Source: a virus (lineage: Duplodnaviria > Caudoviricetes). From it: 64,000 nt of DNA. Made by a program: the position numbers and the translations under genes. Where the stretch lies: IMG/VR virus record IMGVR_UViG_3300029288_000075, positions 1 to 64,000 of that record; one strand, written 5' to 3'. Every line of letters begins with the position of its first letter. The stretch's first letter is position 1. Positions 25,345 to 63,361 of the stretch are shown one piece after another. The notes beneath the pieces were generated by a model. It was not told the origin of the DNA, searched no databases, and saw only the letters and a program-made list of their open reading frames with translations.

Positions 25345-25383
25345 TCCTCTACCTATCTTATCCCCGAAATTGCGGTGAGTTTT
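25345..25383 (-). promoter_or_regulatory. Phage-specific promoter motif A
   Basis: AAA-N16-GGGATAAGATAGGTAGAGGA; 19/20 identical to motif B. Confidence 0.7.
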
Positions 25384-25388
25384 CGGTA

Positions 25389-25428
25389 GCTAAAGAGAAG
25401 CCAGGGTCTTCAACCCAGGCTCCTCCCC
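25389..25428 (-). terminator. Intrinsic terminator of the replication block
   Basis: GAGCCTGGGT/ACCCTGGCTT imperfect hairpin then CTCTTTAGC. Confidence 0.55.
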
Positions 25429-25438
25429 AGCGGTACAC

Positions 25439-25624
25439 CTAACCGCTGTTTCTCGACCGCGCTTGAATACCCCTAACCACTGACAGCAAGCACGATAGGA
25501 AGTGACTCAGGCTGCTTTGTAGAGGTACGTGCGAAGTGCGGAATGATGTACTCTCATGTCCGCAGCCAGCGCAGTACCACGACGCCCCATCTCTGAGTAT
25601 CTTCCCGTTGCACAACGTACTCAT
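25439..25624 (-). CDS. Small Cys-containing hypothetical protein
   Basis: AAAGG RBS; WYCAGCGH. Confidence 0.4.
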   Translation of the reverse strand: MSTLCNGKILRDGASWYCAGCGHESTSFRTSHVPLQSSLSHFLSCLLSVVRGIQARSRNSG

Positions 25625-25668
25625 GACGACCTTTCTGTCTCTGCGGGAGTACGTTTCTCTTACTAGGC

Positions 25669-25827
25669 TCAGTCAACTTGCAGAGCGAGAACTCGTTGTA
25701 GTAGCAGGTCGTGGCTCGGGTCATCCTGGACAAGAACGCCAAGGTCTTTGGCGAAGACCCGCAATGCGGTGTACGAGAGCTTGTGCAGCCTTCTCTCGTC
25801 GACTTCCACCACATCGCGGGTGCCCAT
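25669..25827 (-). CDS. Small Rho-N/HEH-like protein
   Basis: LHKLSYTALRVFAKDLGV helix-extension-helix pattern; ATG 25827. Confidence 0.5.
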   Translation of the reverse strand: MGTRDVVEVDERRLHKLSYTALRVFAKDLGVLVQDDPSHDLLLQRVLALQVD

Positions 25828-25859
25828 TCTGACGCAGTTAGGCCAGGCCTCGACCTCTA

Positions 25860-26705: not shown

Positions 26706-26712
26706 CTGCTTA

Positions 26713-27108
26713 CTATCTCCTTACCTTGTACTTCTTGATCTGAATCAGGTTGCTGTCGTTCAGGCCCTTGACGCATGCAATTACTTGCATGTCTACGCAT
26801 CCGTAGCATGGTTTTGGTTGGGGGTTGACGGGATCTTTCATGTGGCGGGCGGGGCAGGTGATCTGCGTTTCTATCTTCTTCCAATGCTCGTTGAAGAAGG
26901 TGATGAAGGCATCCCTCCAAGCGTCTATTGGGTACTCTCCGGGACGATACGCTGGAGGGTCTTCAACGTCTTCGAAGTAAGCCAGCAGTTTTCGGGTGGA
27001 CTCGTTTGGTCGGACTTTTAGCCCCGCTACTGCGCAGCTCTGAAGTAGCTCTGTCCGGTTGCATCGTCGGTAGAGCGATTCCGACGCTGTCGATGGGCGA
27101 TCCTTCAT
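26713..27108 (-). CDS. Cys-rich hypothetical protein
   Basis: CNRTELLQSC; C-terminal CPA...CYGC...C; start uncertain because it overlaps the RusA-like tail. Confidence 0.55.
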   Translation of the reverse strand: MKDRPSTASESLYRRCNRTELLQSCAVAGLKVRPNESTRKLLAYFEDVEDPPAYRPGEYPIDAWRDAFITFFNEHWKKIETQITCPARHMKDPVNPQPKPCYGCVDMQVIACVKGLNDSNLIQIKKYKVRR

Positions 27109-29057: not shown

Positions 29058-29059
29058 CG

Positions 29060-30717: not shown

Positions 30718-30875
30718 TAGTCCTTGGTCTTCTCGAACGGCGCGGAGCCATGGGTGGGGCAGAAGAGTAGGTTGCCATGCCGTTCGCATTTGGCTCCGCA
30801 CTCTGGGCAGCCGGCGGTGGCTGCCTTTTCCATTGCCTCTTGATCAGTCGTTTCTTCTACGGCGAACTTTTCCAT
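30717..30875 (-). CDS. Small Zn-ribbon protein
   Basis: CPECG...CPTHG. Confidence 0.6.
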   Translation of the reverse strand: MEKFAVEETTDQEAMEKAATAGCPECGAKCERHGNLLFCPTHGSAPFEKTKD

Positions 30876-31874: not shown

Positions 31875-31881
31875 GTTCTTC

Positions 31882-33936: not shown

Positions 33937-33939
33937 AGG

Positions 33940-33971
33940 TACGAAAAGGGAGGCCCGTGACGGACCTCCCT
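33940..33971 (-). terminator. Terminator/attenuator between SSB and Pol
   Basis: AGGGAGGTCCG-TCA-CGGGCCTCCCT hairpin then TTTCGTA. Confidence 0.7.
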
Positions 33972-33985
33972 ATCCTTTCTGCAGC

Positions 33986-35332
33986 TTAGCGCGTGTACGC
34001 GCGTGCTCGATTTACTGGCTGTCGTTCTTCGCCGCTTTTCTTGGACTTCTTTTTTCGCGCAGGGCGATCGTCGTCGTCCTCGTCTTCATCTACCGGCTCC
34101 TCTTCTTCATCCTCGTCTCGGGTCTTGCGCTTGCGAGGTGGTTCGGCGTCTTCGTCTCGGGCTTTTCGCTTGCGCGGTTTCTCACTACCGTCGTCATCAT
34201 CTGACGGCGGTATGCCGAACAGGTCTTCCTGCTTGTCCAACGAGTCGGGGGCGAAGATCTTGTCCAAAGGAAGTGACTTGCGCAGGTCTTCTCCGTAGAC
34301 GTCTGGGATTGGGCGCGGGCCTAGGAATCCTACGATTTGCAGGATCTTCTGCGTACCTCCCCTGTTTCCAGTGGCTTGCGTCTCCACCAGCTTCACCTTC
34401 AGGTCTACGTCGAACAAGGTAGCTGGGTCCCCGTGGTCGCAGGATGTGCAGCGTGTAATGACGTCTAGGTACCCCGTATGCCCGCAGGCTCTGCAACGAA
34501 CTTCTTCATCGCGCAGGGTAGCTAGCTCCTCCTCGTCCAGGCTGGTTTCACTGAAGATGACTACGTCGGCAGAGCAGTTTTTGCATACCAGCGCCAACTC
34601 CTCGATGGAGTCCTGGGCGCCGCAGGTACGACAATGCTTTGACAGCTCATTCTGGTACTCCTGAAGGACACGCCACTGCGGGAAGTTCAAGGACCAGTGC
34701 ATGAGGTGGCCATCTTTCGACTCGTAGCCGGCAGACGCCATTTCGTCGTTGCGACGGGTGGAGCCTCGCGCCCACTCGTAGTAGGGGTCACCCGAATTGG
34801 GGTTCCTTCGTGTTTTACCTTCTGCGTCAACCTGGGGGATCTTGTAGAACGGGGCCTGCACCAGCACAGTGAAAGCCCATCGCTCCGACCGATTCATGGA
34901 TTTGGGGCTCTTGGACCTGTTGCGATTGCGCATTCGCCACTCGTACCAGAACCAGTCCGCAGCAATGCACGGGTCCCCCTTTCCCTTGAATCGGCCTAGT
35001 GGGCCCTCAGAACCGATACAGCCGCGTTGCCTAGGTCCATGGAAGTAGGACATGTACGTGTAGAACGGCAACACGTCGGCAACGATGTTACCGTCGTCGT
35101 CCTTCACGTAGTCTTTGGCTTCTTCATCGATGAGTGGAGTCTCGTAGCTCCCTGGGATTAGACGGATGATATCTGCCTTGCCATGAATCACGGGAACGAA
35201 CTTGTCCCTGAAGTAGTAGCCTCCGCCTCCTCCGCTTTTCTGAGTTCTTGTGGAGGATCTCTTCATTTGCTGTGCCAGGCTCATTCGCGTCTGTACGTAG
35301 CCTGGTCCGCTTTTGCTTTTGCCGAATGCCAT
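33986..35332 (-). CDS. gp32-like ssDNA-binding protein with Zn fingers
   Basis: IIRLIPG N-terminus, four CxxC pairs, charged low-complexity tail; between primase and Pol. Confidence 0.6.
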   Translation of the reverse strand: MAFGKSKSGPGYVQTRMSLAQQMKRSSTRTQKSGGGGGYYFRDKFVPVIHGKADIIRLIPGSYETPLIDEEAKDYVKDDDGNIVADVLPFYTYMSYFHGPRQRGCIGSEGPLGRFKGKGDPCIAADWFWYEWRMRNRNRSKSPKSMNRSERWAFTVLVQAPFYKIPQVDAEGKTRRNPNSGDPYYEWARGSTRRNDEMASAGYESKDGHLMHWSLNFPQWRVLQEYQNELSKHCRTCGAQDSIEELALVCKNCSADVVIFSETSLDEEELATLRDEEVRCRACGHTGYLDVITRCTSCDHGDPATLFDVDLKVKLVETQATGNRGGTQKILQIVGFLGPRPIPDVYGEDLRKSLPLDKIFAPDSLDKQEDLFGIPPSDDDDGSEKPRKRKARDEDAEPPRKRKTRDEDEEEEPVDEDEDDDDRPARKKKSKKSGEERQPVNRARAYTR

Positions 35333-35370
35333 ATGTACCTTCTTGTGCCTCTTCGGGCGATTTTTTGCGC

Positions 35371-36339
35371 TCAGAACAACGTGAGCAGGTTGTGGTTTGG
35401 TGCTTTGTCTATGAGCCTTCTGAGTTTCCTTGTCGGTATGTCAGTAGGCTGCGGAGCATCGTACAACACAACGCGGAGGTCGGTTGTAGTTTCTTCAAGC
35501 TCTTTGCAGATTTGTATTGTCCCGTCGATGCCGGCCTGGTCGTTGTCCAGCATAAGAATGAGAGAGTTCGTGAGTTTTTGCAGTATCCATCGCTGAGCCC
35601 AGCTCATGTGCTTGGTCATCAGAGCTACCACGTTGGTGATCCCTGCCTGCCAGAGCCACATGCAGGCTTTGAACCCTTCTACGACCACTAGAGGGCCATC
35701 TACTTCTTGCGTCATCAGGGGGAAGATGATGTGGGAGTTCCAGAGCAATTTCCCCTTGTCCGTTTCATATGGAGGAAGATCCCAGACGCGATACTCTTCG
35801 TGGTAGACCTTATACCTGGGCTTCTGCTTCTTCCGCATGGCCCTACCGCTGATTCCTACTAGGTTTCCGTGCATGTCGCGCAACGGGAAGGTGATTCGGT
35901 TGTGATCTTCGTCCACCCCTATCTCGAAATGCAGTAAGGTCTCTTCCGTGAATCCTTCATCCAGCAGGTCTAGCGGGCACTTGTGGAAGACCCCCAGTAG
36001 ATCCCCAGGGATGTGCATGTTGGTGTCGTGGACCACTACACCCGGGTTTGCGGGGTCTGGGGGCGGAGGTAGGTTGGTCTTGATCTCCTCCAGCGTGCAT
36101 CCGTAGTGGTGCCGAATCTGCTCTCGAGTGTGTCCGGTGTTTCGTAGGAACTGCTGAAAGTTCCCGCTGGCGCCGCAAGAGAAACAGATGTAGAGCCCGG
36201 TTTGGATGCTCATGGAGAACGAGGGGTCTTTGTCGTCGTGGAACGGGCAGCGTGCCACTACGTTGTAGGCACCAGCAGGCCGTATGGGTCCGTCCACCTG
36301 CGCCTCGAGGGCGCTCATGATCTTTTCCTTTACGCTCAT
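35371..36339 (-). CDS. DnaG-type DNA primase
   Basis: CPFHDDKDPSF...CFSC Zn domain; ISGR; TOPRIM VEGFKA...DNDQAG. Confidence 0.9.
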   Translation of the reverse strand: MSVKEKIMSALEAQVDGPIRPAGAYNVVARCPFHDDKDPSFSMSIQTGLYICFSCGASGNFQQFLRNTGHTREQIRHHYGCTLEEIKTNLPPPPDPANPGVVVHDTNMHIPGDLLGVFHKCPLDLLDEGFTEETLLHFEIGVDEDHNRITFPLRDMHGNLVGISGRAMRKKQKPRYKVYHEEYRVWDLPPYETDKGKLLWNSHIIFPLMTQEVDGPLVVVEGFKACMWLWQAGITNVVALMTKHMSWAQRWILQKLTNSLILMLDNDQAGIDGTIQICKELEETTTDLRVVLYDAPQPTDIPTRKLRRLIDKAPNHNLLTLF

Positions 36340-37742: not shown

Positions 37743-37776
37743 TTCGGGGTGAGCCGTGGCTACTGCGCTCCTGTTC

Positions 37777-42116: not shown

Positions 42117-42264
42117 GAGGCCTCCTGACTTAGGCGGTATGCCTATGCCTCAATTCTCTTTTGCCCTGCGCTATTGCCAATTTGCAGGCCGCAGTTCCGC
42201 AAAGGGGTTGTGTCTAGTATTCTGACGGTGCTACAACTAGCCAGTCGCGCACTGAGAGGCACCG

Positions 42265-48024: not shown

Positions 48025-48063
48025 TCCTCTACCTTTCTTATCCCTGGTTTTTGGCTATTATTT
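48025..48063 (-). promoter_or_regulatory. Phage-specific promoter motif B
   Basis: AAA-N16-GGGATAAGAAAGGTAGAGGA. Confidence 0.7.
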
Positions 48064-49401
48064 CAGGAAGATGGTCTGTCCCCACGCCGCGGGCTTTGTG
48101 CGTGACGTAGGCACGATGCACCAGATCACCTCCATGTTGGTAGGCGGTTCTTCAGGTACCGTACCGTCACCGTCTGTGATGTAGATGAGCATGTCTGGTC
48201 GAGGCATGGCCTTGCATGCTTGTGCTATTGGCTGCCTGAAGTCCGTACCTCCACGCCCGTGTATTTCCATCTGGTACAAGTCCGCTGAGCACACCAGTGT
48301 TGGTTCCCGTTGTATTTTGGTGTCTGCCTCGAGGTAGTACACCTGCGAAGTGCCAGTTTGGTCGATGACGTCGGCGCAAACGCGCAGTGCGGCGCCCAGC
48401 TCAGGCTTGCCCATGGACAAGGAACTGTCCACTACTAGCCAGAGGCAGGGGTCGTAGTCAACCAGTCCAGGTAGCATGAACCCGCGGAGGTAAGACCGCT
48501 TTGACGGACGTTTGCGGCTGTAGTCAGAGCCGCCTACCCGAATGTGGTCTATGGTTTGGCTGGTGACTTCAGCCAGCAGCGATTCCCAAGGAACGTTGAA
48601 GGTTTCGTCGCTGGCGATGATGAGCTCGGACCAGATACCGGGGGCATTATCCCTACCGGTAGCTTGCAGGTGGTCTTTGATAGCCTGCGAGGTGAGTCTT
48701 ACGATGTGTCTCTTGTAGGCGTCAGAGCGACCTCCGTTCTTCTCTGCATTTTTGGCTGCTTCGAGCGCCTCAGATGTCGAAGCGCTAGATACGCCACCGC
48801 AGCAGCCAGCCATGAATTTGTTGTGGTGTTTTCCAGACTGGCCTTCTTGGTCGTTGCCGTCACCTGCTTCGCCTGAATCTCCGGCAGTACTTTTCTGCTT
48901 CTGTTCCTTCTCGTGCTGTTTCAGCCTGCGGTAGTACTCGTCCGCGGTAAGTCCGTTTGGCCATGCGTACTGCGCAGGAAGTACTGCCCAGTCAGGAAAT
49001 AGCCAAAGAGGTCGTTCTTCCGTGTTGGGGCCGCTGCTGTTCTTGAGTCGTACGGTGCGCTTTTGCTCCACCATCACACCGTTGATGAACAGGTCGCACG
49101 CCAAGAAAAAGGTCTGCGTATCTGGATAGCGCAGCCCTCTCTTCACATGCTCGAGCTGCACATGAAGGCACTCGTGAGCCAATCCGGTGGCCACAATTTG
49201 GGGATCTTCTGTAGCCACCCAGGCAGGGTCGTAGAGAAGCACAAGTTGCTCAGTTACGGCCATAGGGCCCTTGGCTATTTGCATCATGTGCTCGACTGGC
49301 GTTGGTATCAACGCGTAGAGTGTCGGGCTTAGGTATGGTGCAAACTGTCGGACAATCGCCCGCGCCAAGGGCAGCGCGGGCGACATATCTTGGTACGTCA
49401 T
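48058..49401 (-). CDS. Metallopeptidase-VWA protein (DUF2201-like)
   Basis: AHECLH, MIDAS VVDSSLS, GRGGTDF, YITDG. Confidence 0.85.
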   Translation of the reverse strand: MTYQDMSPALPLARAIVRQFAPYLSPTLYALIPTPVEHMMQIAKGPMAVTEQLVLLYDPAWVATEDPQIVATGLAHECLHVQLEHVKRGLRYPDTQTFFLACDLFINGVMVEQKRTVRLKNSSGPNTEERPLWLFPDWAVLPAQYAWPNGLTADEYYRRLKQHEKEQKQKSTAGDSGEAGDGNDQEGQSGKHHNKFMAGCCGGVSSASTSEALEAAKNAEKNGGRSDAYKRHIVRLTSQAIKDHLQATGRDNAPGIWSELIIASDETFNVPWESLLAEVTSQTIDHIRVGGSDYSRKRPSKRSYLRGFMLPGLVDYDPCLWLVVDSSLSMGKPELGAALRVCADVIDQTGTSQVYYLEADTKIQREPTLVCSADLYQMEIHGRGGTDFRQPIAQACKAMPRPDMLIYITDGDGTVPEEPPTNMEVIWCIVPTSRTKPAAWGQTIFLK

Positions 49402-51941: not shown

Positions 51942-51942
51942 A

Positions 51943-52092: not shown

Positions 52093-52110
52093 GCGACCCT
52101 CCGATAAAGC

Positions 52111-52138
52111 TCTTATCCCGTAGGGTGCGTGTCCCTTG
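52111..52138 (-). promoter_or_regulatory. Phage-specific promoter motif C
   Basis: CAA-N16-GGGATAAGA at the head of the MoxR/VWA operon. Confidence 0.6.
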
Positions 52139-52187
52139 CACCTTTTTGTCCCCGCAACCGCTGGTTCCAGCTATACTCTCGTAGAGC

Positions 52188-55100
52188 ATGACGCACTTGA
52201 ATCCGACTGAAGCGTTCGAGCACTACCGCGACAAGACCCTGGGTGCGATCAGGAAGCAGTTCCCTGTCGACGGGCAGAACCAACGTCTCGAGCTGGTGGA
52301 CCTAGAAGTTCAGGACAACTTGAATCCCGACGATATCAGGGATCAGCAGCAGGCCAAGGTAACAGGGAAGACTTGGGGTATCCCGGTTTACGCCAAGCTC
52401 AAGTTGGTGAACAAGGTCACTGGCGAGACGACTCAGTCGCGTACCAGAATTGCTGAGCTTCCCAAGATTACATGCCGACAGAGCTACATCGTAGGCGGGC
52501 AGGAGTACCAAGTAGACAACCAGTGGCGGCTCAAGCCTGGCGCGTATGTGCGGAGGAGGCAGACCGGACAGATTGAGGCAATGTTCCAGCCGGGTAACAA
52601 GCCGTCGTTCGACGTTGTTTTTGATGACGCGACGAAGGAGTTCAAAGTAGAGCTCCCTGGCGGTAAAGCGTCTGTGCCGCTGTACCAGATCATTTCCACG
52701 TTGGGTGTTTCTGATGACGAGTTGCACAAGGCGTGGGGTCCTGAGGTATTGGCTGCCAACAGAAATGCACGTGGTGTTCACGGGGCGGTGGAGCAGTACT
52801 ACAAGACCACGACAAAGAAGGAGGCACCCAGTGCGGCAGTAGCTGTAAGTCATCTAGTGACTTCACTGCAGCAAACGCAGCTGCGACCCGAAGCTACGGC
52901 GCTCACGCTTGGGAAGCCGATAGACCATGTGAACGGTGATGCTCTGCTGCGGGCTACTCGCAGGATGTTGGATGTCCAGTCTGGTGGGCCTGTAGATGAC
53001 CGCGATTCGCTGGTGTTCAAGGACCTCAGGAGCGTTGGGGATTTCTCCGAGGACAAACTACGTGAGGCTGGTGCAGATATTCGACGTAAGATGTCGAGGC
53101 AGGTGAATCGCGCAACCAACCCGTCCCACATGGTGCCGCTTGACGCGTTCAATAGGCCCATCAGGGACACGTTCTACAAGAACTCTGCAGCGCAGGTAGC
53201 CAAGCAAATCAACCCGGTGGAGATCTTGTCGGCTGCGCAGCAGACCACGGTGATGGGACCTGGCGGTATCCAGTCCGAGAATCAGATCATGCCCGAGGTG
53301 AAGTTTGTGAATCCCTCGCACATGGGCTTCTTGGACCCGATACATACGCCGGAAGGTGGAAAGACGGGCGTTACCTTGCGGTTGCCTATGAGCGTGAAGC
53401 AAGTTGGGTACGAGCCTAGGATTCCGCTGTACAACATACGTACAGGAAAGGTGGAAGACGTAGGGCCTGCCGCGTTTCTGAAATCGAAGATTGTACTTCC
53501 TGACCAGGTGGACTGGAAAGGCGGGAAGCCGGTAGCTCGAGGGCGTACGGTGAAGCTATCCGTGGCAGGCAACGACGTATCGGATGGCCATTTGCACGAG
53601 GCTGACTACGTGATGCAGCACACGTCGCAGTTCTTCAATGTCACCAGCAACTTGATCCCGTTCATCAACAGCACTTCTGGTGGCAGAGCATCTATGGCCA
53701 CCAGGCACATGGAGCAGGCCATCTCTCTGGTGGGACGAGAAGCACCTCTTGTTCAAGTAGGCACTGGCTCCGCTACCCCGGGTAGCACCACTTTCGAAGA
53801 GGTTGTAGGCACTCGCGCGTCTCATTACTCTCCGATCGCGGGCGTGGTGAAGGCAGTGAAGCATGACGCTGTGGTAGTAGCTGGCCACGACGGCAAGGAG
53901 CACGAGGTGCAGATCTACCGCAACTACCCGCTGAACGACGCCAAGTCGGTTTTGGACTCCACAGCGATTGTGAAGCCTGGTGATCGCGTGCGTGCGGGGC
54001 AGGTGGTGGCGGATACGAACTTTTCAAAAAACGGCGTAATTGCCTTGGGCACGAACCTGCGCGTGGGCTACATCCCGTACACGGGGTACAACTTCGAGGA
54101 TGGAGTAGTCATCAGCGAAAGTGCTGCGACGAAGCTCAGTAGCGACCATCTATACAAGCACAAGGTTCCCGTAGATGCCGAGTCGGTGTTGTCGAAGAAG
54201 CACTTTGTGACGCACCACGCTGGCTTGTTCAGCAAGGATCAGTTCGCAAAGGTAGGAGATGACGGGCTAGTTGCCGTAGGATCCGTGGTGCATCCCGGAG
54301 ACCCGCTGGTCTTGTCTATGAAGCAAGTGGTTGCGCGTGACCGCACGGGGCTATCCGCCATCCGTAAGAGCTTTGGGACTCAGTTTGCCGACCAGTCTAC
54401 TGTCTGGGACGGGGTAGGTGAAGGCAGGGTTGTGAGCTCCGAGAAAGTTGGCGACCACGTGGTTGTACACGTGCGGGCAATTGAGCCGATGCAAGTTGGC
54501 GACAAGTTGGCTGGTAGGTACGGCAACAAAGGCATTGTCACCAAGATTGTGCCGGACCACGAGATGCCACGTACACCCGATGGGAAGCACATAGAGGTGG
54601 CGTTGAATCCCTCGGGGGTACCTGGGCGTATGAACGTAGGGCAAGTGCTGGAGACTGCGGCTGCCAAGATTGCCCAGAAGACGGGCAAGCCGTACATTGT
54701 GCAGAACTTTTCAGATGGTAGTCAGCTTGCTCGGGTGCAAGCCGACCTGAAGAAGCACGGGCTGAGTGACACAGAGGACTTGTTTGATCCTATTACGAAG
54801 CAGCGCTTGGGCACTGCGCTGGTCGGCTCCCAGCACATGATCAAGCTGCACCATCAAGTGGACAAGAAGGTGTCCGTACGCTCTGGCATGACGTTGCCGG
54901 GAGAAGCTCCAGAGAAGTACAACTCCAACCTGCAGCCGGTGAGTGGCAAGCATACCGGCGGACAAGCGATGGACCCGCTAGGTATGTACTCTCTGCTCGC
55001 GCACGGGGCTCGTGCAAACATCCGAGAGATGGCCACGTGGAAGAACGAAGGTCCGGACATGTCTTCCAATCCGTCCAAGCAGTGGCATAGTCAGCATCAC

Positions 55101-58100
55101 GAGGTGTGGGATGCCATACAGCACGGTGACCCGTTGCCCGTGCCGAAGCCGACTTTCGCCTTTCACAAGTTCACGTCGATGCTTACCGCCGCGGGCATCA
55201 ACGTAGATAAGAAAGGGCACAACTTCATCTTGGGCCCGTTGACGGATTCCCACATACAGCAGTCGTCTGGAGATCGGGTACTGACGAAGCCTTCGGAGAT
55301 TGTTTACGCGAAGCTGGATTCGAAGACGGGGGAGCCCAAGCCCAAGCCGGGAGGGTTGTTTGACGACCGCCTTACTGGTGGCAATGGCGGACGTAAATGG
55401 AGTCGAATCGCCCTTGCCGAGCCGGTGCCAAATCCCGTGTTTGAGGATTCCATCCGGATGCTGACGGGGCTCTCTTCTGCGGACTACCACGGGTTGGTGC
55501 ATGGGGTGCACGCGATAGACAGTCACGGCCACATCGTAGAGGCTGGCAAGGGCACTACTGGCGGTGCGGCGATTGAGCAGCTGCTGAAGAAGATAGATGT
55601 GGCTGCCGAGTTGGATAAGTCCAAGAGGGCTTTGAATACGCTACCGGCGTCGAAGGTGGATGCCACCCTGAAGAGGGTGAAGCGGCTACAAGCACTTCAC
55701 CAGTCTGGCTTGTCTGCTGATGAGGCATACGTGCTGCACTCCCTGCCAGTCATTCCTCCAGCTATGCGCCCAGTCACTGTCATGCACGACGGCTCGCTGA
55801 AGTTCGATGACATCAATCAGCTGTATGCCAAGGCAGCTCAGACGAACATGTACTTGGGGGATCAAACGTTGGCCACGAACTTGCCGGAACAGCGCAGGAG
55901 AGATTTGCGCAAGGAGATGTACGACGGTGTCAGTGCATTGATGGGAGTCGGTATCCCGTACAAGGATGCGCAGCATAAGGGCCTATTGCATCTGATCCAG
56001 GGCGCGCAGCCCAAGACCGGCTATTTCCAGAGCACGCTCATCAGTCGCAAGCAAGACCTGAGCATGCGGTCTACCATTGTTCCGGAACCCTCCTTGGGGT
56101 TGGACGAGGTAGGGTTGCCTCGAGAGCAAGCCATGAAGCTGTTTTCTCCCTTTGTGGTGGGTGAGTTGAAGAAGTCAGGAATGGCCATCAACGTGGCCGA
56201 CGCGCAGAAGATGGTAGCTTCCGGCACGCCCGCGGCGCACAGGGCGTTGGCCAAAGTCATGACCGAACGTCCCGTGATGCTGAAACGAGATCCTTCGTTG
56301 CACAAGTACAGCATCCAGGCGTTTCAGCCTAAGGTGGTGGAGGGTAGCGCTATCAAGATTCACCCGCTGGTTACTGGGGGGTACAACGCAGACTTCGACG
56401 GGGACACCATGAGCGTGTTCGTGCCTATCTCTCAAGAGGCAGTGGATGAGGCGCACCGCATGTTCCCGTCCAACAACCTGTTCAGCGAAGCTACAGGCAA
56501 GGTCATGTACCAGCCTACGCTGGAGTCTGCGCTGGGGCTGTATAAGCTGTCGCGTGTCAATGATACGAAGGCGCACCACATCTCTCACCCTGCGGAAGCG
56601 ATTACCGCGGTGCAGCAGGGGAAGCTAACGGTGAATGACCGGGTGAAACTGGGAAATCAGGTCACCACACCAGGTCGTATCATTTTGGCGGCCGCCCTGC
56701 CTGAGCCAATGCAGCGTCCTATGCTGGAGAACCTTGGGCAGCAGTTGGACAAGAAAGGGCTGGACGCGCTGCTGACTACAGTGGCCAAGAACCATGTCGG
56801 AGACTATGGGCATGTAGCAGACAAGCTGAAGAACTTGGGTAACGGGGCGGCAAGTGGCGTGGTCACGGTGGAGCATGACGGATTCGTGGGTGCTGCACGT
56901 CTGGACCAGAAGAATAGAACTTACGTGCCTGTGGGCGTCCACACGCTGGCGTTGTCCGACTTTGAGCCAGATACGAAGACCAGGGAGCGAGTGTTGGCAC
57001 CGGCTCGTTTGGAGGCGGCACAGGTAAGGCAGGGGGGTGGTACCAAGTACAACAAGGATGCTGCGCTGGTGCGTATTTGGTCTGCAGCAGACCGCAAGAT
57101 GCAGGAAGAGCACATGAAGGTGGCCACAGACGATCCGACCAACCTCATGATGATGCACTTGGCTGGCGTGAAGCCCGGGTGGGGACAGTACAAGCAGCTC
57201 ACGCTGGCACCCATGCTGGTGGCCGACGCTTCTGGAAGAATCATCCCAGTGCCTATTACCCGCAGCTACTCCGAGGGGCTGGATTCTGGAGATTACTGGA
57301 ACCAGATGCACGGAGCTCGGCGTGGTGCGGTCATGAAGGTGCAGGAGGTCCAGGAACCTGGGTATCTTTCGAAGCTGATGATGGCCAACACTATGAACAT
57401 GGTGGTGCATGGGAACGACTGTGGCACTGAGCGCGGTATTGCTCTTCCTGTGACCGACCCAGATGTGCATGACCGGTTCTTGCAGCGTGAATTCAACGAG
57501 AAGGGAGTGCATGTCCCCTCCGGTACCTTACTCACTCCGCGGGTAGTCACCAGCATGCGTTCAGCAAACAAGAATGCTCAGATCGTGGTGCGCAGCTCGT
57601 TGAAGTGCGAGCATGCTACTGGGGTGTGCCAGAAGTGTATGGGGCTAGCGGCCAATGGCAACTTGCATTCTGATGGGGACAATGTTGGTGTTACGGCTGC
57701 ACAGACGCTGGGTGAGCGCGCGGTGCAGTTGACCATGCGCGTTTTTCATACCGGTGGCGTGGCGGATACCGGGAGTGGTTCCCGCGTGCTGGGGGAATTC
57801 GATCGGGTGCAGCAGCTCATGAAGTTGCCCAAGCGCATACCCGACGCGGCCACGTTGGCTATGGCATCGGGCACAGTTGACAAGGTGGAAAAGACGGCCA
57901 CCGGCATGAACATCTTCGTTGGGGGTAAGAAGCACTTCGTGGGGAAAGACGCTCGAGGGGCACCCTTGTGGCATTCCATAGGGGACAATGCGCATCCTGG
58001 CTGGGTCCCCCCGCGGGTAGGGACCCAGGTGACGCGAGGCCAGTCGCTGAGTGATCCTCTTCGTACGCTGGTGAATCCGCATGATCTGTACAAGGCCACT

Positions 58101-58583
58101 GGGAGCATTGAGACTGTGCAGAACCACCTGGCGGACCAACTGCATTCCTTGTACAAAAGCGAAGGGATCAAGCGGCAGCACGTGGAGACTGTGGTCAAGG
58201 CCATGAGCAACCTGTCCGAGGTAGCCGCCCCTGGGGACTACGAGGGTGTCCTGCGTGGCGAATTCCATCCCACGTCCAAGCTCATTGCGGTCAACAAGCG
58301 GCTGATTCGGGAGGGTAAGAAGCCGATAGAGCACAAGCCGGTACTGAAGGGGGTGGACATCATGCCGTTAGCGGTTCAAGAAGATTGGATGGCCAAGATG
58401 CAGCACATCAAGCTCAATCAGACCCTGCTGGATGCAGCGGCCACAGGCGGTAGATCCAGCATCCATGGCATGCACCCCATTCCTGCTCTGGCGTATGGTG
58501 CTGAGTTTGGTTTGACAAGTGAGCATGCCAAGCAGCGGTCAGCCTTGAGCCATCTTCACGATGTGCAGGGGCACGAGTACTGA
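52188..58583 (+). CDS. Single-chain beta-beta' DNA-dependent RNA polymerase, 2131 aa
   Basis: beta motifs TPEG, GYNFEDG, GDKLAGRYGNKG, NPSGVPGRMNVGQ followed in frame by beta' motifs LPVIPPAMRP, YNADFDGD, HGARRG, TMRVFHTGG. Confidence 0.95.
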   Translation: MTHLNPTEAFEHYRDKTLGAIRKQFPVDGQNQRLELVDLEVQDNLNPDDIRDQQQAKVTGKTWGIPVYAKLKLVNKVTGETTQSRTRIAELPKITCRQSYIVGGQEYQVDNQWRLKPGAYVRRRQTGQIEAMFQPGNKPSFDVVFDDATKEFKVELPGGKASVPLYQIISTLGVSDDELHKAWGPEVLAANRNARGVHGAVEQYYKTTTKKEAPSAAVAVSHLVTSLQQTQLRPEATALTLGKPIDHVNGDALLRATRRMLDVQSGGPVDDRDSLVFKDLRSVGDFSEDKLREAGADIRRKMSRQVNRATNPSHMVPLDAFNRPIRDTFYKNSAAQVAKQINPVEILSAAQQTTVMGPGGIQSENQIMPEVKFVNPSHMGFLDPIHTPEGGKTGVTLRLPMSVKQVGYEPRIPLYNIRTGKVEDVGPAAFLKSKIVLPDQVDWKGGKPVARGRTVKLSVAGNDVSDGHLHEADYVMQHTSQFFNVTSNLIPFINSTSGGRASMATRHMEQAISLVGREAPLVQVGTGSATPGSTTFEEVVGTRASHYSPIAGVVKAVKHDAVVVAGHDGKEHEVQIYRNYPLNDAKSVLDSTAIVKPGDRVRAGQVVADTNFSKNGVIALGTNLRVGYIPYTGYNFEDGVVISESAATKLSSDHLYKHKVPVDAESVLSKKHFVTHHAGLFSKDQFAKVGDDGLVAVGSVVHPGDPLVLSMKQVVARDRTGLSAIRKSFGTQFADQSTVWDGVGEGRVVSSEKVGDHVVVHVRAIEPMQVGDKLAGRYGNKGIVTKIVPDHEMPRTPDGKHIEVALNPSGVPGRMNVGQVLETAAAKIAQKTGKPYIVQNFSDGSQLARVQADLKKHGLSDTEDLFDPITKQRLGTALVGSQHMIKLHHQVDKKVSVRSGMTLPGEAPEKYNSNLQPVSGKHTGGQAMDPLGMYSLLAHGARANIREMATWKNEGPDMSSNPSKQWHSQHHEVWDAIQHGDPLPVPKPTFAFHKFTSMLTAAGINVDKKGHNFILGPLTDSHIQQSSGDRVLTKPSEIVYAKLDSKTGEPKPKPGGLFDDRLTGGNGGRKWSRIALAEPVPNPVFEDSIRMLTGLSSADYHGLVHGVHAIDSHGHIVEAGKGTTGGAAIEQLLKKIDVAAELDKSKRALNTLPASKVDATLKRVKRLQALHQSGLSADEAYVLHSLPVIPPAMRPVTVMHDGSLKFDDINQLYAKAAQTNMYLGDQTLATNLPEQRRRDLRKEMYDGVSALMGVGIPYKDAQHKGLLHLIQGAQPKTGYFQSTLISRKQDLSMRSTIVPEPSLGLDEVGLPREQAMKLFSPFVVGELKKSGMAINVADAQKMVASGTPAAHRALAKVMTERPVMLKRDPSLHKYSIQAFQPKVVEGSAIKIHPLVTGGYNADFDGDTMSVFVPISQEAVDEAHRMFPSNNLFSEATGKVMYQPTLESALGLYKLSRVNDTKAHHISHPAEAITAVQQGKLTVNDRVKLGNQVTTPGRIILAAALPEPMQRPMLENLGQQLDKKGLDALLTTVAKNHVGDYGHVADKLKNLGNGAASGVVTVEHDGFVGAARLDQKNRTYVPVGVHTLALSDFEPDTKTRERVLAPARLEAAQVRQGGGTKYNKDAALVRIWSAADRKMQEEHMKVATDDPTNLMMMHLAGVKPGWGQYKQLTLAPMLVADASGRIIPVPITRSYSEGLDSGDYWNQMHGARRGAVMKVQEVQEPGYLSKLMMANTMNMVVHGNDCGTERGIALPVTDPDVHDRFLQREFNEKGVHVPSGTLLTPRVVTSMRSANKNAQIVVRSSLKCEHATGVCQKCMGLAANGNLHSDGDNVGVTAAQTLGERAVQLTMRVFHTGGVADTGSGSRVLGEFDRVQQLMKLPKRIPDAATLAMASGTVDKVEKTATGMNIFVGGKKHFVGKDARGAPLWHSIGDNAHPGWVPPRVGTQVTRGQSLSDPLRTLVNPHDLYKATGSIETVQNHLADQLHSLYKSEGIKRQHVETVVKAMSNLSEVAAPGDYEGVLRGEFHPTSKLIAVNKRLIREGKKPIEHKPVLKGVDIMPLAVQEDWMAKMQHIKLNQTLLDAAATGGRSSIHGMHPIPALAYGAEFGLTSEHAKQRSALSHLHDVQGHEY

Positions 58584-59848: not shown

Positions 59849-60489
59849 TGGTAAACGACATCGGCAGCTATACGCTTGGTGGCATCAACATTGGATTGGC
59901 CGTAGGCATAGGCCTGATCAACCCACTGCTACTGCAGTTCGACTTGTTCCTGACAGGACAGTTCGGTCTTGGGCCATTTCTGCTGGATGTGCAGGTAGCT
60001 TTCAATGCAGCGATATCCGCGGTGTTGCAGCTCAGCATCGGGATCTCTGACCCGTTGGCGATACTGCGGTCGTTGCTCATGGCTATGGTGCAATTGCAAG
60101 CTTCGTTGTCGGTGATGCTGTCTTTCGGATTGCCCACGGTTACTGCGCAGATAGGCGCACAGATTGCTGCTGTGGCAGCACTCACTGGTGCCTTGGCTTT
60201 GAAGCTAGGTGGTGTGCGAGCCTTGCTGTCTGCCGGGTTGGCCGTGAAGATCCCGGTAGTGAAGTTTGTCGGACAGATCACTGGTGCACTAAGCGCTGGG
60301 CCTGCCCATTTGCTGTCCTTTACGGGAAGTACATTGGCCGCATCTGGCGTTCAGATTGCGGCAGCCTTCGCTTCTGGTCTTGGACCAGACGACCCTCTTT
60401 TGCCAACCGACTTGGTGGATGGCATCATCATCGTCACTAAGGACCCTGCCGTTTTCCAGGCTATGGGTTTGCTGCTAAAGACATCGTGA
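59848..60489 (+). CDS. Highly hydrophobic putative tail-tip protein
   Basis: TAATG-coupled to the spike; L/A/G/I-rich. Confidence 0.55.
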   Translation: MVNDIGSYTLGGINIGLAVGIGLINPLLLQFDLFLTGQFGLGPFLLDVQVAFNAAISAVLQLSIGISDPLAILRSLLMAMVQLQASLSVMLSFGLPTVTAQIGAQIAAVAALTGALALKLGGVRALLSAGLAVKIPVVKFVGQITGALSAGPAHLLSFTGSTLAASGVQIAAAFASGLGPDDPLLPTDLVDGIIIVTKDPAVFQAMGLLLKTS

Positions 60490-61007
60490 TGGCTAGCCAC
60501 TCGCAAAGATTTTGGGCTAAGGTGCAGAAGCGAGGTCCCAAGCATCCGGGGTTAGGCACACGCTGTTGGGTGTGGACCGCGGCAAGGCTTCCTGCGGGCT
60601 ATGGGTTGTTCAAGCTGAATGGCCGCAGCCGTGTTGCTCATAGTGTTGCTTGGGAGATCGAACACGGCGAACTACTTAGAGGTATCTGCGTGCTACATCG
60701 CTGCGATAATCCAGCGTGCGTGCGCCCAGACCACCTGTTTTTAGGTACCAGAGGGGACAACAATACGGATAGGTCCATAAAAGGCAGAAGTGCCAAGGGA
60801 GACCGCTCGCCCTCCAGGTTGCACCCGGAGAGCAGACCAAGAGGCTCCCGGCATGCCAATGCGAAACTGACGGAAGAGAGGGCCGCCAGGATTCGGGAGT
60901 TATATGCTGTTGGAGATACTACGCAGACCAGGCTGGCCCGGCTGTTCGGTGTTCATCAAAAGGTGATTAGTGGTATCGTTTTGGGCACTAGTTGGAAGAC
61001 CTCGTAG
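60489..61007 (+). mobile_element. Free-standing HNH homing endonuclease
   Basis: CWVWT, GYG, VLHRCDNPACVRPDHL...NNTD, C-terminal HTH. Confidence 0.85.
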
Positions 61008-61019
61008 GAGACTTGTCGC

Positions 61020-63149
61020 ATGAACCAGCCATTGTTCCTGACAGCTATGCCAGATTTCGAAAAGGGAGCTGCCGAAACGGCAATGCCCGAGGATCCCAAT
61101 GCTTGGTCCGACGAGGCACTACAAGCCTTGTACAAGCAAGTTCCTTACCTGTCTGACTTCGACTTGCACGTAGAGATGGCGGCGGTGGATGGTGAGCGAG
61201 GGTACGGGTTGGGGCATGTCAAGGTAACGTCGAAGACAGAGGCGCCGATGATGGCGCCAGCAGACCAGCTGAAGTCTGCCGGCATTCGGGAGAGTCGAAT
61301 TCCCATCATCATCAAGGACAACAAGCTGATGCCCTTGGATCTCATCGTAACGGACGACTCCAAGGTGTTGCCACTTACTGAAGGACGTTTGCGTCAGGCC
61401 ATGTTTCGTCCGCAGAACTTTGACGTTACGTCGAAGACGCCAGGCGACCAGTCGATGATTGGGCAGTTGTATCCTCCGTTTCGACAGAACTATGGATTTG
61501 GCGGGGGAGGCGTGGCGGTCAGTGCAGGCATGGGCGGCAAGACTGCCGCTGTGCACAGCGATCTCGAGGCATGGTTGACTGCAGATGTGACGAAGAAAGA
61601 GGCGTCGAGCGCGACCAAGGGTGCACGTTTCCACAAAGCACAGCAGCTACTCGGTAAGACAGGGTCGGTACTGTCGGCGGTACTCCCTACGGCAAACGTG
61701 TCCGACTTGGACGCCTTCCGTGAGGCACTGGGTGACGCTTCTACGAAAGTAGCGTTTTTTCAGAATGTTGCTGCGTATGGGGCGCTGCAGAAGATTGCGG
61801 AGACTGAGCCACGGTCGATTGCTAAGACTGCGGCCAGGCTTGCTGACGTGCTGCGCCCAAGTGTGGTGCAGTTCATCAGCAATGGTGATGGCACCTACGT
61901 TTGCAAGACAGCGAGCAGGCACAGCTGGGAAGCTCGTGAAGTAGAGGTGTCACGGCAGCTGCTGGTTCAGCACATGGGGTCCAAGCTAGCTGCCGAGGTG
62001 GACAGCGCGGGTTCGGTGACGCTAGCTCCCGAGGGTGCCGCAGCAGTCGCTGAGAGCCCACTGCCAGGGTCTGGCGCAGGTCCTATTTCAGCGCCGGGGA
62101 TGTACCAGGTGCAGACCGCGGAAGGGGAATCCCTGTCGGGGGTGGTCGTCCCGAATCTGCTGGATGTGGACGGTACGGCCCTGCCCATCTCCCTTTTCAT
62201 GGATGGTCAGCACGTGGCGGTGCAGGCAGACATGGTGGGTACCCCCCTCGGGGAGTACTCGGCCCCTGGCAGTCTTCCCGCGGATCAGGCCGCCGGGTAT
62301 GGCGTCTTCTACTTCGAGGCCGGAGGCATACCGGTGGCCACTCTCCCATTGCGTTTGGGAGCCAGCGTGGCGGGTATGGAGGGACAGACGGGTCACTTTA
62401 CGGCAGAAACCTTCGATGGGCGCCTCGTACAGGTCAGCGTGCAACCGTACGTGGCAACAGTGGTCGGTGTGGAAGACCAGATGCTCATCCCGAGCACTTG
62501 GTGCTGGATTCCGCTCGATCAGGCGCAAGAGGTAAGCCTGGCGGAGACTGCAGCGACTGCCCAAAAGGTGGCGTCGTCGGCACAAAGGGCGCTTCAAGTC
62601 ACCGTATTGGCAGGTTCGGCCGACAGTTTCTCGTTGCGGGGGGCTCCGGTAGAGAAGCTGGCGGCGGACGAACGGAACTTCCTCACCCAGGACCAGGCGC
62701 TATTTGTTCTAGTTGGCTGTGGGGCCGACCCCACCAAGTCGTTGAACAAGCTGGCGGAAGCGCTGTCGCTACCCGGCAAGCAGGCGACCCTTGCGGTGCC
62801 GCACACCCTGAAGATGGCAGAGGAGGTGCGGGGCGAGAGCTACCTGAATGCCCAGGAGTACCTGGACAATACCCCGTCATTTCGAGTGCGTTTGTGGAAA
62901 GAGGCGGCTGTCATCCCTGACCCAGTCGCGGTCGATACGGTCCTCAGCTTGGGGTTCCTCAATCCGGAGAACATCACAGCATTCGTTGGTTACCTCCCCA
63001 CGCTGGATGAGGCGCAGCGCCGCATGTGCGAGCTGCTCATTGGCGCAAGGCTTGGTTTGCGGGAGCTGTCTGATGGTGCGCTCGAGCGGGCTATTCGCGC
63101 TGTAGAGGACGTCATCGAGGGACTCAAGGTCATCGCTTTCCAGGGCTAA
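61020..63149 (+). CDS. Putative virion/head protein rich in KxA motifs, 709 aa
   Basis: GGAG RBS; about 16 K-x-A sites. Confidence 0.6.
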   Translation: MNQPLFLTAMPDFEKGAAETAMPEDPNAWSDEALQALYKQVPYLSDFDLHVEMAAVDGERGYGLGHVKVTSKTEAPMMAPADQLKSAGIRESRIPIIIKDNKLMPLDLIVTDDSKVLPLTEGRLRQAMFRPQNFDVTSKTPGDQSMIGQLYPPFRQNYGFGGGGVAVSAGMGGKTAAVHSDLEAWLTADVTKKEASSATKGARFHKAQQLLGKTGSVLSAVLPTANVSDLDAFREALGDASTKVAFFQNVAAYGALQKIAETEPRSIAKTAARLADVLRPSVVQFISNGDGTYVCKTASRHSWEAREVEVSRQLLVQHMGSKLAAEVDSAGSVTLAPEGAAAVAESPLPGSGAGPISAPGMYQVQTAEGESLSGVVVPNLLDVDGTALPISLFMDGQHVAVQADMVGTPLGEYSAPGSLPADQAAGYGVFYFEAGGIPVATLPLRLGASVAGMEGQTGHFTAETFDGRLVQVSVQPYVATVVGVEDQMLIPSTWCWIPLDQAQEVSLAETAATAQKVASSAQRALQVTVLAGSADSFSLRGAPVEKLAADERNFLTQDQALFVLVGCGADPTKSLNKLAEALSLPGKQATLAVPHTLKMAEEVRGESYLNAQEYLDNTPSFRVRLWKEAAVIPDPVAVDTVLSLGFLNPENITAFVGYLPTLDEAQRRMCELLIGARLGLRELSDGALERAIRAVEDVIEGLKVIAFQG

Positions 63150-63327
63150 GAAAAAGCGGAGGACCATGTAACAGCGTCGTGTGGCCTTACCAGCCACACG
63201 CCGTTTCCCTTTGATTCGAACTCAGGCGCAAATACATCGCTACATTGGCCGTATTGTCCGGTCTTGTGCATTCATCTGGTTGTATTTATCGACGCAAGAC
63301 AGCCTCCTTGGATTGCGTTAGTGTGCA
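63146..63327 (-). ncRNA. Candidate structured non-coding RNA
   Basis: Bounded by promoter motif D and TTTTTCTTAGC; nested stems; no good ORF. Confidence 0.35.
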
Positions 63328-63333
63328 CGTTGT

Positions 63334-63361
63334 ACTTATGCCATGCTCTGGCTAGGAATTT
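63334..63361 (-). promoter_or_regulatory. Phage-specific promoter motif D
   Basis: AAA-N16-GGCATAAGT. Confidence 0.5.

What the first reader, a model, noticed from the sequence alone, without database searches (positions are those of the whole stretch)
25345..63361. Conserved non-sigma70 promoter motif AAA-N16-GGNATAAG heading minus-strand units
Copies at 25345-25383 and 48025-48063 share 19/20 nt and the upstream AAA in identical register. Further copies are at 52111-52138 (CAA), 63334-63361 and, weaker, 39842-39868. All are on the - strand, just before an RBS or transcription unit. Looser variants precede SSB (GGCACAAGAAGGTA, ~35336-35349) and the replication block (GGGCAAAGA, ~42157-42165). 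Inference: cognate promoters of the phage RNAP.
Basis: partly seen in the sequence, partly recalled or inferred. Interest (0 to 1): 0.8.

Follow-up and report, generated by a model that had tools for sequence, protein, structure and literature searches.

The report
Phage sigma-type early promoter motif
A short two-part DNA signal repeated in front of the non-structural genes of this 188-kb uncultured phage is a real promoter. It has the layout of a bacterial flagellar-sigma (sigma-28) promoter and is most likely read by the phage's own sigma factor together with its own single-chain RNA polymerase.

Summary
All five listed copies sit at the stated coordinates. In the 124 kb outside the window, GGNATAAG occurs 20 times against 4.4 expected, and 17 of those 20 are intergenic. 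The full AAA-N16-GGNATAAG pattern occurs 5 times against 0.02 expected.

The same two-part motif is the top intergenic-enriched word in three relatives (~69% nucleotide identity). Its -10 core also recurs about 30 times in Salmonella phage Arash (GGTATAAG) and about 21 times in Vibrio phage D69 (GTTATAAG).

"Non-sigma70" is only half right. It is not the housekeeping consensus, but it is a sigma70-family bipartite promoter. Its AAA and ATAA blocks are spaced exactly as in sigma-28/FliA promoters.

The phage encodes a divergent group-3 sigma at 125.6 kb, outside the window, and one fused beta-beta' polymerase that keeps both sigma-docking elements.

In Arash, published virion proteomics found the polymerase and the sigma in particles. 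So these are probably early promoters of a phage-borne holoenzyme. Which core enzyme reads them is inferred, not shown.

The scan had already noted this motif in other windows of this genome and in other genomes of the lineage.

The parts
25345..25386 (-). Promoter copy 1. -35 GAAA 25384-25381; -10 GGGATAAG 25364-25357; predicted start A25350; SD GGAGGA 25347-25342; ATG 25336 of a 90-aa ORF.
48025..48066 (-). Promoter copy 2. -35 TGAAA ending at 48061; -10 GGGATAAG 48044-48037. It sits just past the 3' end of the HNH gene 48058-49401 and heads small ORFs (ATG 47985).
52105..52141 (-). Promoter copy 3. -35 TGCAAGG (CAA 52138-52136); -10 GGGATAAG 52119-52112. It heads a ~49-aa ORF (ATG 52091) and the downstream membrane-protein genes. 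Both blocks are conserved at the orthologous divergent spacer in G001 and G003.
63328..63364 (-). Promoter copy 4. -35 TGAAA (AAA 63361-63359); -10 GGCATAAG 63342-63335. It lies in a 213-nt insert (63150-63362) that G001 and G003 lack, followed by an SD, a 3-codon ORF and a 41-aa ORF (63271-63146). Its product is unknown.
39835..39871 (-). Weak copy 5. GGTATAAG 39849-39842, with AAG instead of AAA at the -35 register. It lies inside the 3' end of the helicase gene, 31 nt before TTG 39818. Not conserved in relatives.
42140..42188 (-). Variant promoter heading the replication block. TGCAAA-N16-GGCAAAAG (42165-42158), then AGAATTGAGGCA. The G001 orthologue has TGAAA-N16-GGGAAAAGAGAACTGAGGCA.
35330..35372 (-). 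Doubtful variant. GGCACAAG 35349-35342, with an A-run one base off register, 17 nt before ATG 35332. Absent before the orthologues.
52188..58583 (+). Fused beta-beta' RNA polymerase (2131 aa), the only RNAP gene in the genome and the candidate core enzyme. It keeps the beta' clamp helices and the beta flap-tip helix. It is preceded by a different conserved box, GCTATACT 52170-52177, with no SD.

Best explanation
The motif is a bipartite sigma70-family promoter specific to this phage lineage.

Consensus: cTG(A/C)AA - N16 - GG(G/C/T)ATAAG A(A/T)AGGTAG - SD - ATG.

Inferred register:
- -35 block at about -36 to -30, with near-invariant A-32 and A-31.
- Extended -10 block G-14 G-13 n-12 A-11 T-10 A-9 A-8 G-7.
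- A 6-nt discriminator.
- Start at the conserved purine 7 nt after the final G, so that most mRNAs begin at or just before the Shine-Dalgarno sequence.

Inferred mechanism:
- It is recognised by the phage's own 251-aa group-3 (FliA/WhiG/SigF-like) sigma factor, encoded at genome 125585-126340.
- Sigma domain 4 would read the AAA block, and domains 2 and 3 would read GGnATAAG.
- The sigma most likely works with the phage's alpha-less single-chain beta-beta' polymerase (52188-58583).
- By analogy with Salmonella phage Arash, polymerase and sigma are probably packed into the virion. They would then fire these promoters at the start of infection.
- The promoters drive the small early ORFs and the DNA-metabolism and replication genes. 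The structural genes lack the motif.

Shown: the motif, its two-part structure, its position and orientation, its conservation, and the existence and fold class of the sigma and the polymerase.

Inferred: the transcription start, which protein reads the motif, which core enzyme is used, and the timing.
For: Motif statistics: enrichment, intergenic location and co-orientation.

Two-block information profile over 63 sites in 4 genomes:
- AA at -18/-17 carries 1.4 and 1.6 bits.
- GGgATAAGA follows at positions 0 to 8.
- A pyrimidine-purine step sits at +13/+14.

Conservation where the DNA no longer aligns (relatives ~69% nucleotide identity, sigma 62-63% identical):
- ATAAGA-type words top the intergenic enrichment in G001 and G003 and rank third in G002.
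- Both blocks are kept at orthologous spacers: beside the RNAP gene, before gene 110481, and about 1.5 kb upstream of the sigma operon in all four genomes.

Deep conservation:
- Arash has GGNATAAG 36 times on one strand against 7-8 for the control. GGTATAA is its top intergenic word (33/41).
- D69 has 21 intergenic GTTATAAG or GGTATAAG sites, all on one strand.
- The best phage-collection matches to the sigma are the same four phages that give the best long matches to the polymerase (Arash, D69, D181, D148). Klebsiella phage K64-1 is the only other, marginal, sigma hit.

Sigma identity:
- Pfam Sigma70_r3 scores 30.8 bits, above the 25.3 cut-off.
- The best NCBIfam families are SigB/F/G, WhiG and FliA_WhiG.
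- The best PDB sequence hits are WhiG (6pfv) and SigF (1l0o).
- The AF2 model has pLDDT 83, and all top Foldseek hits are sigma factors, with a B. subtilis SigD model first.

Register: the last A of AAA to A-11 is 20 nt, the same as in the P. aeruginosa fliC sigma-28 promoter (PMC12784957).

Polymerase:
- It retains the beta' clamp helices and the beta flap-tip helix.
- The genome has no alpha homologue and no second RNAP.

Virion link:
- Arash virion mass spectrometry found beta Gp206 (most spectra of any protein), beta' Gp216 and sigma Gp10 at 100% coverage (PMC10585845).
- The sigma N-terminus here, MNAADEFLETKQKTAA, resembles the N-terminus of a protein in the head-gene cluster, MNPAEEFLTEKKAF.

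Host promoters: sigma70-consensus sites show no excess over 42-54 kb (4 found, 4.1 expected).
Against: - No transcription start, RNA or binding data exist for this phage or any relative.
- The sigma operon is itself headed by a copy of the motif, so sigma is not purely a late, packaged product.
- The polymerase gene has a different upstream box (TATACT), so at least one other promoter class and possibly another reader exist.
- Residues that I recall (from memory) as critical for sigma70 binding on E. coli beta' (R275, E295) align to T and L in the phage enzyme. This fits a private sigma-core pair, but it also means sigma docking is not proven.
- In Arash and D69 the core reads tGGTATAAG or GTTATAAG, which is close to a host extended -10 (TGnTATAAT).
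- Virion proteomics of Arash may include abundant contaminants, as its authors note.
- Sigma and polymerase co-occurrence may simply reflect common descent.
Confidence: 0.6

Rival explanations
1. The phage sigma reads the motif but redirects the HOST core polymerase, as SPO1 gp28 or T4 gp55 do. The phage beta-beta' enzyme would then use other signals, for example the TATACT-type boxes.
For: - Sigma appropriation of the host core is the classic phage strategy (established knowledge).
- A second class of upstream boxes exists before the RNAP gene and other + strand genes.
- The sigma's region 2 is recognisably sigma70-like.
Against: - The sigma co-occurs with the phage RNAP in every phage examined here, across hosts as different as Vibrio and Salmonella.
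- Both are abundant in Arash virions.
- The phage enzyme keeps both sigma-docking modules.
- No other sigma was found in the genome. The only other region-4 hit lies beside an HNH-like Cys/His motif and is probably a homing endonuclease; no family search was run on it.
Confidence: 0.2
2. The host holoenzyme alone reads the motif, either sigma70 as an extended -10 promoter or host sigma-28/FliA.
For: - Arash tGGTATAAG and D69 GTTATAAG resemble TGnTATAAT.
- The geometry equals that of sigma-28 promoters.
Against: - The predicted -7 base is G in essentially every copy in all six genomes, whereas T-7 is a key sigma70 contact.
- In this phage -12 is mostly G or C, there is no T at -15, and there is no TTGACA.
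- The sigma-28 hallmark CGA (-13 to -11) is absent, because the -12 base varies.
- The motif is kept in phages of unrelated hosts with 45-60% GC.
Confidence: 0.07
3. The phage polymerase recognises the motif without a sigma, or with an unrelated phage factor, as phiKZ and AR9 non-virion RNAPs do.
For: - Jumbo-phage multisubunit RNAPs use non-sigma specificity subunits (PMC7598289, listed; established knowledge).
- The downstream AwAGGTAG block next to the predicted start is also conserved.
Against: - A -35-like block at fixed distance and a canonical sigma register argue for a two-domain sigma.
- A bona fide sigma is encoded and conserved in more than 100 relatives.
Confidence: 0.08
4. The motif is not a promoter. 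It could be a conserved 5'-leader, a translation signal, a repressor operator or an RNA-processing site.
For: In about 38 of 55 sites the motif abuts the SD, which starts 14-17 nt after the first G. Part of the conservation may therefore be translational.
Against: - About a third of sites have 30-110 nt between the motif and the SD.
- The upstream AA block, 20 nt from the core and separated by non-conserved spacer, has no translational rationale.
- Copies sit at the heads of divergent units.
Confidence: 0.05

Closest known systems
Sigma-28 (FliA/SigD/WhiG) class promoters, TAAA-N15-GCCGATAA
   Same: - Bipartite layout with an AAA block at -33 to -31 and ATAA at -11 to -8.
- Identical 20-nt distance between them (PMC12784957).
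- The cognate factor here is a group-3 sigma whose best sequence and fold matches include WhiG, FliA and SigD.
   Different: - The extended -10 is GGn, not GCCG, and the CGA core is absent.
- G is fixed at the predicted -7.
- The -35 reads cTG(A/C)AA, not TCTAAAG.
- The regulon is phage early and replication genes, not flagellar genes.
- The sigma is only about 1e-7 to 1e-8 to those families and scores far below their cut-offs.
Promoters of phage-encoded sigma factors acting on host core (SPO1 gp28 and gp33/34, T4 gp55, phiEco32 gp36)
   Same: A phage-encoded sigma70-family protein defines a private promoter class for a temporal gene set (established knowledge).
   Different: Here the phage also encodes a complete beta-beta' core that keeps the sigma-docking modules. 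In a cultured relative, both core and sigma are found in virions.
Early promoters of virion-packaged phage RNAPs (N4 vRNAP hairpin promoters; phiKZ/AR9 vRNAP AT-rich motifs; crAss-like gp66; P23-45 TMP-fused RNAP, PMC10770324)
   Same: A polymerase made late, carried in the particle, would transcribe early genes from a phage-specific motif repeated at the heads of early units.
   Different: Those enzymes use no sigma70-family factor, and their promoters are single short motifs or hairpins. This motif has -35 and -10 blocks in sigma register, and the enzyme is a close bacterial-type beta-beta' (Rpb2_6 E 1e-53).
Salmonella phage Arash (OQ632216; PMC10585845) and Vibrio phages D69/D148/D181
   Same: - Same lineage markers: RNAP and sigma about 30% identical.
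- Same -10 core: GGTATAAG about 30 times in Arash, GTTATAAG about 21 times in D69.
- In all, the sites lie on the strand opposite to the RNAP and sigma genes (and, in this phage, the major head protein gene).
   Different: - The -35 blocks differ: weak CAATAA/TCAATAA-like.
- The -12 base is T rather than G or C.
- The RNAP is split in Arash (gp206 + gp216).
- The term 'promoter' does not occur in the Arash paper.

Membership tests
Sigma70-family bipartite promoter (general architecture) | Two conserved blocks separated by a non-conserved spacer of fixed length, equivalent to 16-18 nt between hexamers | tested here: met
   Information peaks at -18/-17 and at 0 to +8, with none between. AA is at register in 50/64 intergenic sites against 7/33 genic sites. 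The hexamer-equivalent spacer is 18 nt.
Sigma70-family bipartite promoter (general architecture) | Invariant A at -11, and a transcription start about 7 nt after the -10 hexamer | tested here: inconclusive
   A is invariant at the position that would be -11, and a conserved pyrimidine-purine step lies at the predicted -1/+1. No start site has been mapped.
Housekeeping sigma70 consensus promoter (TTGACA-N17-TATAAT) | T at -7 and T at -12 of the -10 hexamer; TTGACA-like -35 | tested here: not met
   The predicted -7 is G in all copies. The -12 base is mostly G or C in this phage. The -35 is cTG(A/C)AA. Consensus sigma70 sites show no excess.
Sigma-28/FliA promoter class | -35 TAAA and -10 ..GATAA at the same spacing | tested here: met
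   AAA (or CAA) and ATAA are 20 nt apart, as in (-36)TCTAAAG(-30) / (-15)GCCGATAA(-8).
Sigma-28/FliA promoter class | GCCGATAA with the conserved CGA at -13 to -11 | tested here: not met
   The block reads GG(G/C/T)ATAAG. The -13 base is G and the -12 base varies. So it works like a sigma-28 promoter but is not one.
Group-3 sigma70-family factor (the proposed reader) | Domains sigma2, sigma3 and sigma4 without region 1.1 or the non-conserved region | tested here: met
   - 251 aa in length.
- Region 3 scores above the Pfam cut-off; regions 2 and 4 are weak.
- NCBIfam alignments span residues 18-250.
- In the AF2 model, full-length alignments go to sigma factors only.
Group-3 sigma70-family factor (the proposed reader) | Binds a core RNAP and directs it to the motif | not testable with these tools
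There are no biochemical data.
phiKZ/AR9-type jumbo-phage RNAP promoters | A single short motif at or near the start, no -35 block, a non-sigma specificity subunit and split beta/beta' genes | tested here: not met
   The motif is bipartite. The beta-beta' is fused and close to the bacterial type. A sigma70-family gene is present.

The most novel reading that the evidence does not exclude
An alpha-less, single-chain bacterial-type beta-beta' polymerase and a FliA-like sigma are packed together into the virion. They are injected as a ready holoenzyme and start host-independent early transcription from these sigma-28-geometry promoters. This would be the first sigma-dependent virion RNA polymerase. 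Its promoter code (GGnATAAG with G at -7) would be conserved from uncultured ~190-kb phages to Salmonella and Vibrio phages.
Probability: 0.45. Interest if true: 0.8.

Novelty: new variant of a known kind. Interest (0 to 1): 0.62.

Why it matters
- The motif gives a concrete, testable promoter code for a large and almost unstudied phage lineage. That lineage comprises hundreds of RNAP clusters and more than 100 sigma clusters, mostly on 160-200 kb contigs.
- Two cultured members, Arash and D69, carry the same core motif. Start-site mapping, rifampicin tests and in vitro transcription are therefore feasible now.
- If the phage holoenzyme reads it, this is a minimal sigma-dependent multisubunit RNAP (one beta-beta' chain plus sigma, no alpha) with a private promoter. 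That would bear on RNAP assembly and evolution, and it could serve as an orthogonal expression system.
- It also allows early and late genes to be annotated in these genomes from sequence alone.

Tried and rejected
- Complex prediction (sigma with beta' residues 1000-1500) was not available, so there is no docking test.
- Megablast of 20 kb against the phage collection found nothing.
- Rfam found no known RNA family in the window. That includes the 63.2-kb insert downstream of copy 4.
- A full-text search for the 8-mers returned only unrelated primer hits. A search for virion RNAP plus sigma literature found nothing on this lineage.
- An iterated PWM gave 39 sites over 15 bits against 1.1 in shuffles. 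I discount that figure as circular and rely on the held-out pattern counts.
- GTGCTAC looked like a second, + strand promoter word in this genome. It is not conserved as such in relatives, where TATACT, TATAAC or GATACT-like boxes occur instead. I left it unresolved.
- The conserved CCTTGC and TTTGC blocks upstream of + strand genes turned out to be the reverse complement of the -35 of divergent copies of this motif.
- The second sigma-region-4 hit, at 67.4 kb, lies in a frame with an HNH-like Cys/His motif. I read it as a homing endonuclease, not a sigma. No family search was run on it.
- Pfam and PHROGs gave no function for most genes directly downstream of the motif.

Full report
**Setting.** The window is the first 64 kb of a 187,857-bp IMG/VR virus record (99% complete, 57% GC). 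The genome has one RNA polymerase gene, a 2131-aa fused beta-beta' at 52188-58583(+). It has strong bacterial-type domains (Rpb2_6 E 1e-53; NCBIfam rpoC E 2e-145). No alpha homologue was found.

**Observation.** Every listed copy is at its stated place. The two best copies share 19 of 20 bases after GG, and both have AAA exactly 16 nt upstream.

Genome-wide, GG[ACGT]ATAAG occurs 26 times, and 21 of those are intergenic where 11% of the sequence is (p 4e-16). GGGATAAG occurs 9 times on the - strand and never on the + strand.

An unbiased scan of all 7-mers for intergenic enrichment puts GATAAGA first (9/10) and GGGATAA second.

The window served as the training set and the other 124 kb as the test set:
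- GGNATAAG occurs 20 times against 4.4 expected.
- AAA-N16-GGNATAAG occurs 5 times against 0.02 expected.
- [AC]AA-N16-GGNATAAG occurs 10 times against 0.13 expected.
- 17 of the 20 test-set sites are intergenic.

**Anatomy.** Aligned copies read cTG(A/C)AA-N16-GG(G/C/T)ATAAG-A(A/T)AGGTAG(A/T)GGAGGAAC..ATG. Over 63 intergenic sites from four genomes, information sits in three places:
- two adenines at -18/-17 from the first G (1.4 and 1.6 bits);
- GGgATAAGA at positions 0 to 8;
- a pyrimidine-purine pair at +13/+14, followed by the Shine-Dalgarno sequence.

The spacer between the blocks carries no information. The AA doublet is linked to real sites: it is present in 50 of 64 intergenic copies but in 7 of 33 genic ones. 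In six genomes, 80 of 82 intergenic sites point at the next gene.

In this phage the minority coding strand (33 kb against 134 kb) holds 15 of the 21 intergenic sites. This is why every window copy is on the - strand. The rule does not hold genome-wide: + strand copies, mostly GGCATAAGG, exist at 124126, 135257, 154672, 175462 and 176672.

**What lies downstream.** The motif heads small ORFs of unknown function and the DNA-metabolism genes. These include a DnaB-like helicase, PolA, a Cas4-like exonuclease, an SNF2-type helicase, an HNH endonuclease, an ATPase and a NUDIX protein. The tail/baseplate block (166-24105) and the head block around the major head protein (75604-76722) have no copy. 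This pattern fits an early or middle gene class.

**Conservation.** Three IMG/VR relatives were fetched whole. They are about 69% identical over roughly 50 kb of coding DNA, and their sigma is 62-63% identical.
- Independent intergenic-word scans put ATAAGAG, GGGATAA or GATAAGA on top in two of them and ATAAGAA third in the 58%-complete one.
- Their copies have the same two blocks and the same spacing.
- At orthologous spacers the surrounding DNA has diverged beyond alignment, yet both blocks persist. Examples are the divergent spacer beside the RNAP gene (TGCAAGG-N15-GrGATAAGAG), the spacer before gene 110481 (GCAAA-N15-GGCATAAGA and equivalents), and a site about 1.5 kb upstream of the sigma operon in all four genomes.
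Those at 35349 and 39849 are not.
- Copy 4 lies in a 213-nt insert that the relatives lack.

**Deep conservation.** By tblastn, the only phage records with a near-full-length match to the fused RNAP are Vibrio phages D69, D148 and D181 (Salmonella phage Arash matches 70% of it), all at about 30% identity. The same four phages are the best hits to the sigma; Klebsiella phage K64-1 is the only other, marginal, hit.
- Arash has GGNATAAG 36 times on one strand against 7-8 for a reversed control. About 30 copies read GGTATAAG-tAAaGTgTAa before an SD and a start codon. GGTATAA is its top intergenic word (33/41).
- D69 has 21 intergenic sites, mostly GTTATAAG-tAAyaT (a few GGTATAAG), all on one strand.
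- The nATAAG core and the T-purine step about 6 nt later therefore survive across hosts and across 45-60% GC.

**The reader protein.** A weak Sigma70_r2 hit led to a 251-aa ORF at 125585-126340(+).
- It passes the Pfam cut-off for sigma region 3.
- Its best NCBIfam families are SigB/F/G, WhiG and FliA/WhiG.
- Its best solved relatives are WhiG and SigF.
- Its model folds with pLDDT 83, and every top Foldseek hit is a sigma factor, with a B. subtilis SigD model first.
- More than 100 clusters of this sigma exist, mostly on 180-200 kb contigs.

Published numbering for a sigma-28 promoter is (-36)TCTAAAG(-30) and (-15)GCCGATAA(-8) (PMC12784957). The last A of its AAA lies 20 nt from A-11. In the motif here, the last A of AAA lies 20 nt from the A of ATAAG. 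The two promoters therefore share the AAA and ATAA blocks in the same register.

They differ in three ways: GGn replaces GCCG, the CGA core is absent, and G is fixed at the predicted -7. The motif works like a sigma-28 promoter but is not a member of that class, and it is not the housekeeping consensus. Sigma70-consensus sites show no excess over 42-54 kb (4 found, 4.1 expected).

**Which core enzyme.** This step is inferred.

In favour of the phage enzyme:
- It retains the beta' clamp helices and the beta flap-tip helix, the two sigma-docking modules.
- Sigma and polymerase co-occur in every phage examined here.
- In Arash virions, mass spectrometry found beta (the most spectra of any protein), beta' and sigma at 100% coverage. 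The authors suggest a role in early transcription but caution about carry-over (PMC10585845).
- The sigma here begins MNAADEFLETKQKTAA, much like MNPAEEFLTEKKAF at the N-terminus of a protein in the head-gene cluster. I verified only the sequence likeness and the location.

Against, or left open:
- The sigma operon itself carries a copy of the motif.
- The polymerase gene is preceded by a different conserved box, G[CG]TATACT, 10 nt before the ATG and without an SD.

The same motif and the same lineage were already noted by this scan in other windows of this genome and in other genomes. My results agree with those notes and were obtained independently, except for the packaging lead.

Noticed in passing
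window 52170-52190 (+); the same place in G001 and G003: The RNAP gene is preceded in all three genomes by a conserved G[CG]TATACT box 10-12 nt before the ATG, with no Shine-Dalgarno sequence. This looks like a different promoter class and a near-leaderless mRNA.
   Followed up: partly
window 24115, 42228, 60690 (+); G000 64515, 68730, 83485, 96811, 110465, 161558, 166019, 184307: GTGCTAC is intergenic-enriched (12/24) on the + strand before several + strand genes. The exact word is not kept in relatives, which show TATAAC, GATACT or TATTAT-like boxes instead.
   Followed up: partly
window 63150-63362: A 213-nt insert between two + strand genes that are directly adjacent in G001 and G003. It carries promoter copy 4 in antisense orientation, an SD with a 3-codon ORF, and a 41-aa ORF. 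It could be a moron or an antisense RNA.
   Followed up: partly
window ~33940-33985 (-): A GC-rich hairpin plus T-run lies immediately upstream of the PolA start codon, and similar hairpins sit at the same place in G001, G002 and G003. There is no copy of the motif there, so PolA expression would need read-through or another signal.
   Followed up: no
window 55200-55400 (RNAP residues ~1050-1075): The beta' N-terminus reads GGLFDEKLTGGHGGxKW in the family consensus. The Cys-rich zinc-binding domain of bacterial beta' seems to be missing. This is my reading of the consensus, not a structural test.
   Followed up: no
protein P0220: A 2045-aa homologue (57% identical over the region searched) is recorded in the 13.6-Mb genome of Pendulispora rubella (Myxococcota), and another in a Myxococcota MAG. 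This is a possible host clue or a resident prophage.
   Followed up: no
G000 67477-67578 (+), just beyond the window: A sigma region-4-like HTH (24.1 bits) lies in a 227-aa frame whose upstream part reads like an HNH motif. It is probably a homing endonuclease rather than a second sigma.
   Followed up: partly
Arash genome (L043-L052); D69 (L053-L062): TATATAA (20/21 intergenic) and ATATATA (15/15) in Arash, and ATATATA (26/45) in D69, are a second strongly intergenic word family. They may be another promoter class, possibly late.
   Followed up: no
G000 166411-166486 (+) (L038 2411-2486): ARAGORN calls a tRNA-Phe with the unusual anticodon AAA. It is the only tRNA call in the 124 kb scanned outside the window (the window itself was not scanned) and may be spurious.
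   Followed up: no
several promoter copies, e.g. window 25390-25397; G001 111600, 157000, 187010: A TTAGC(C/T)CC word often lies just upstream of the -35 block, in places after a T-run. It could be an upstream promoter element or the tail of a preceding terminator.
   Followed up: no
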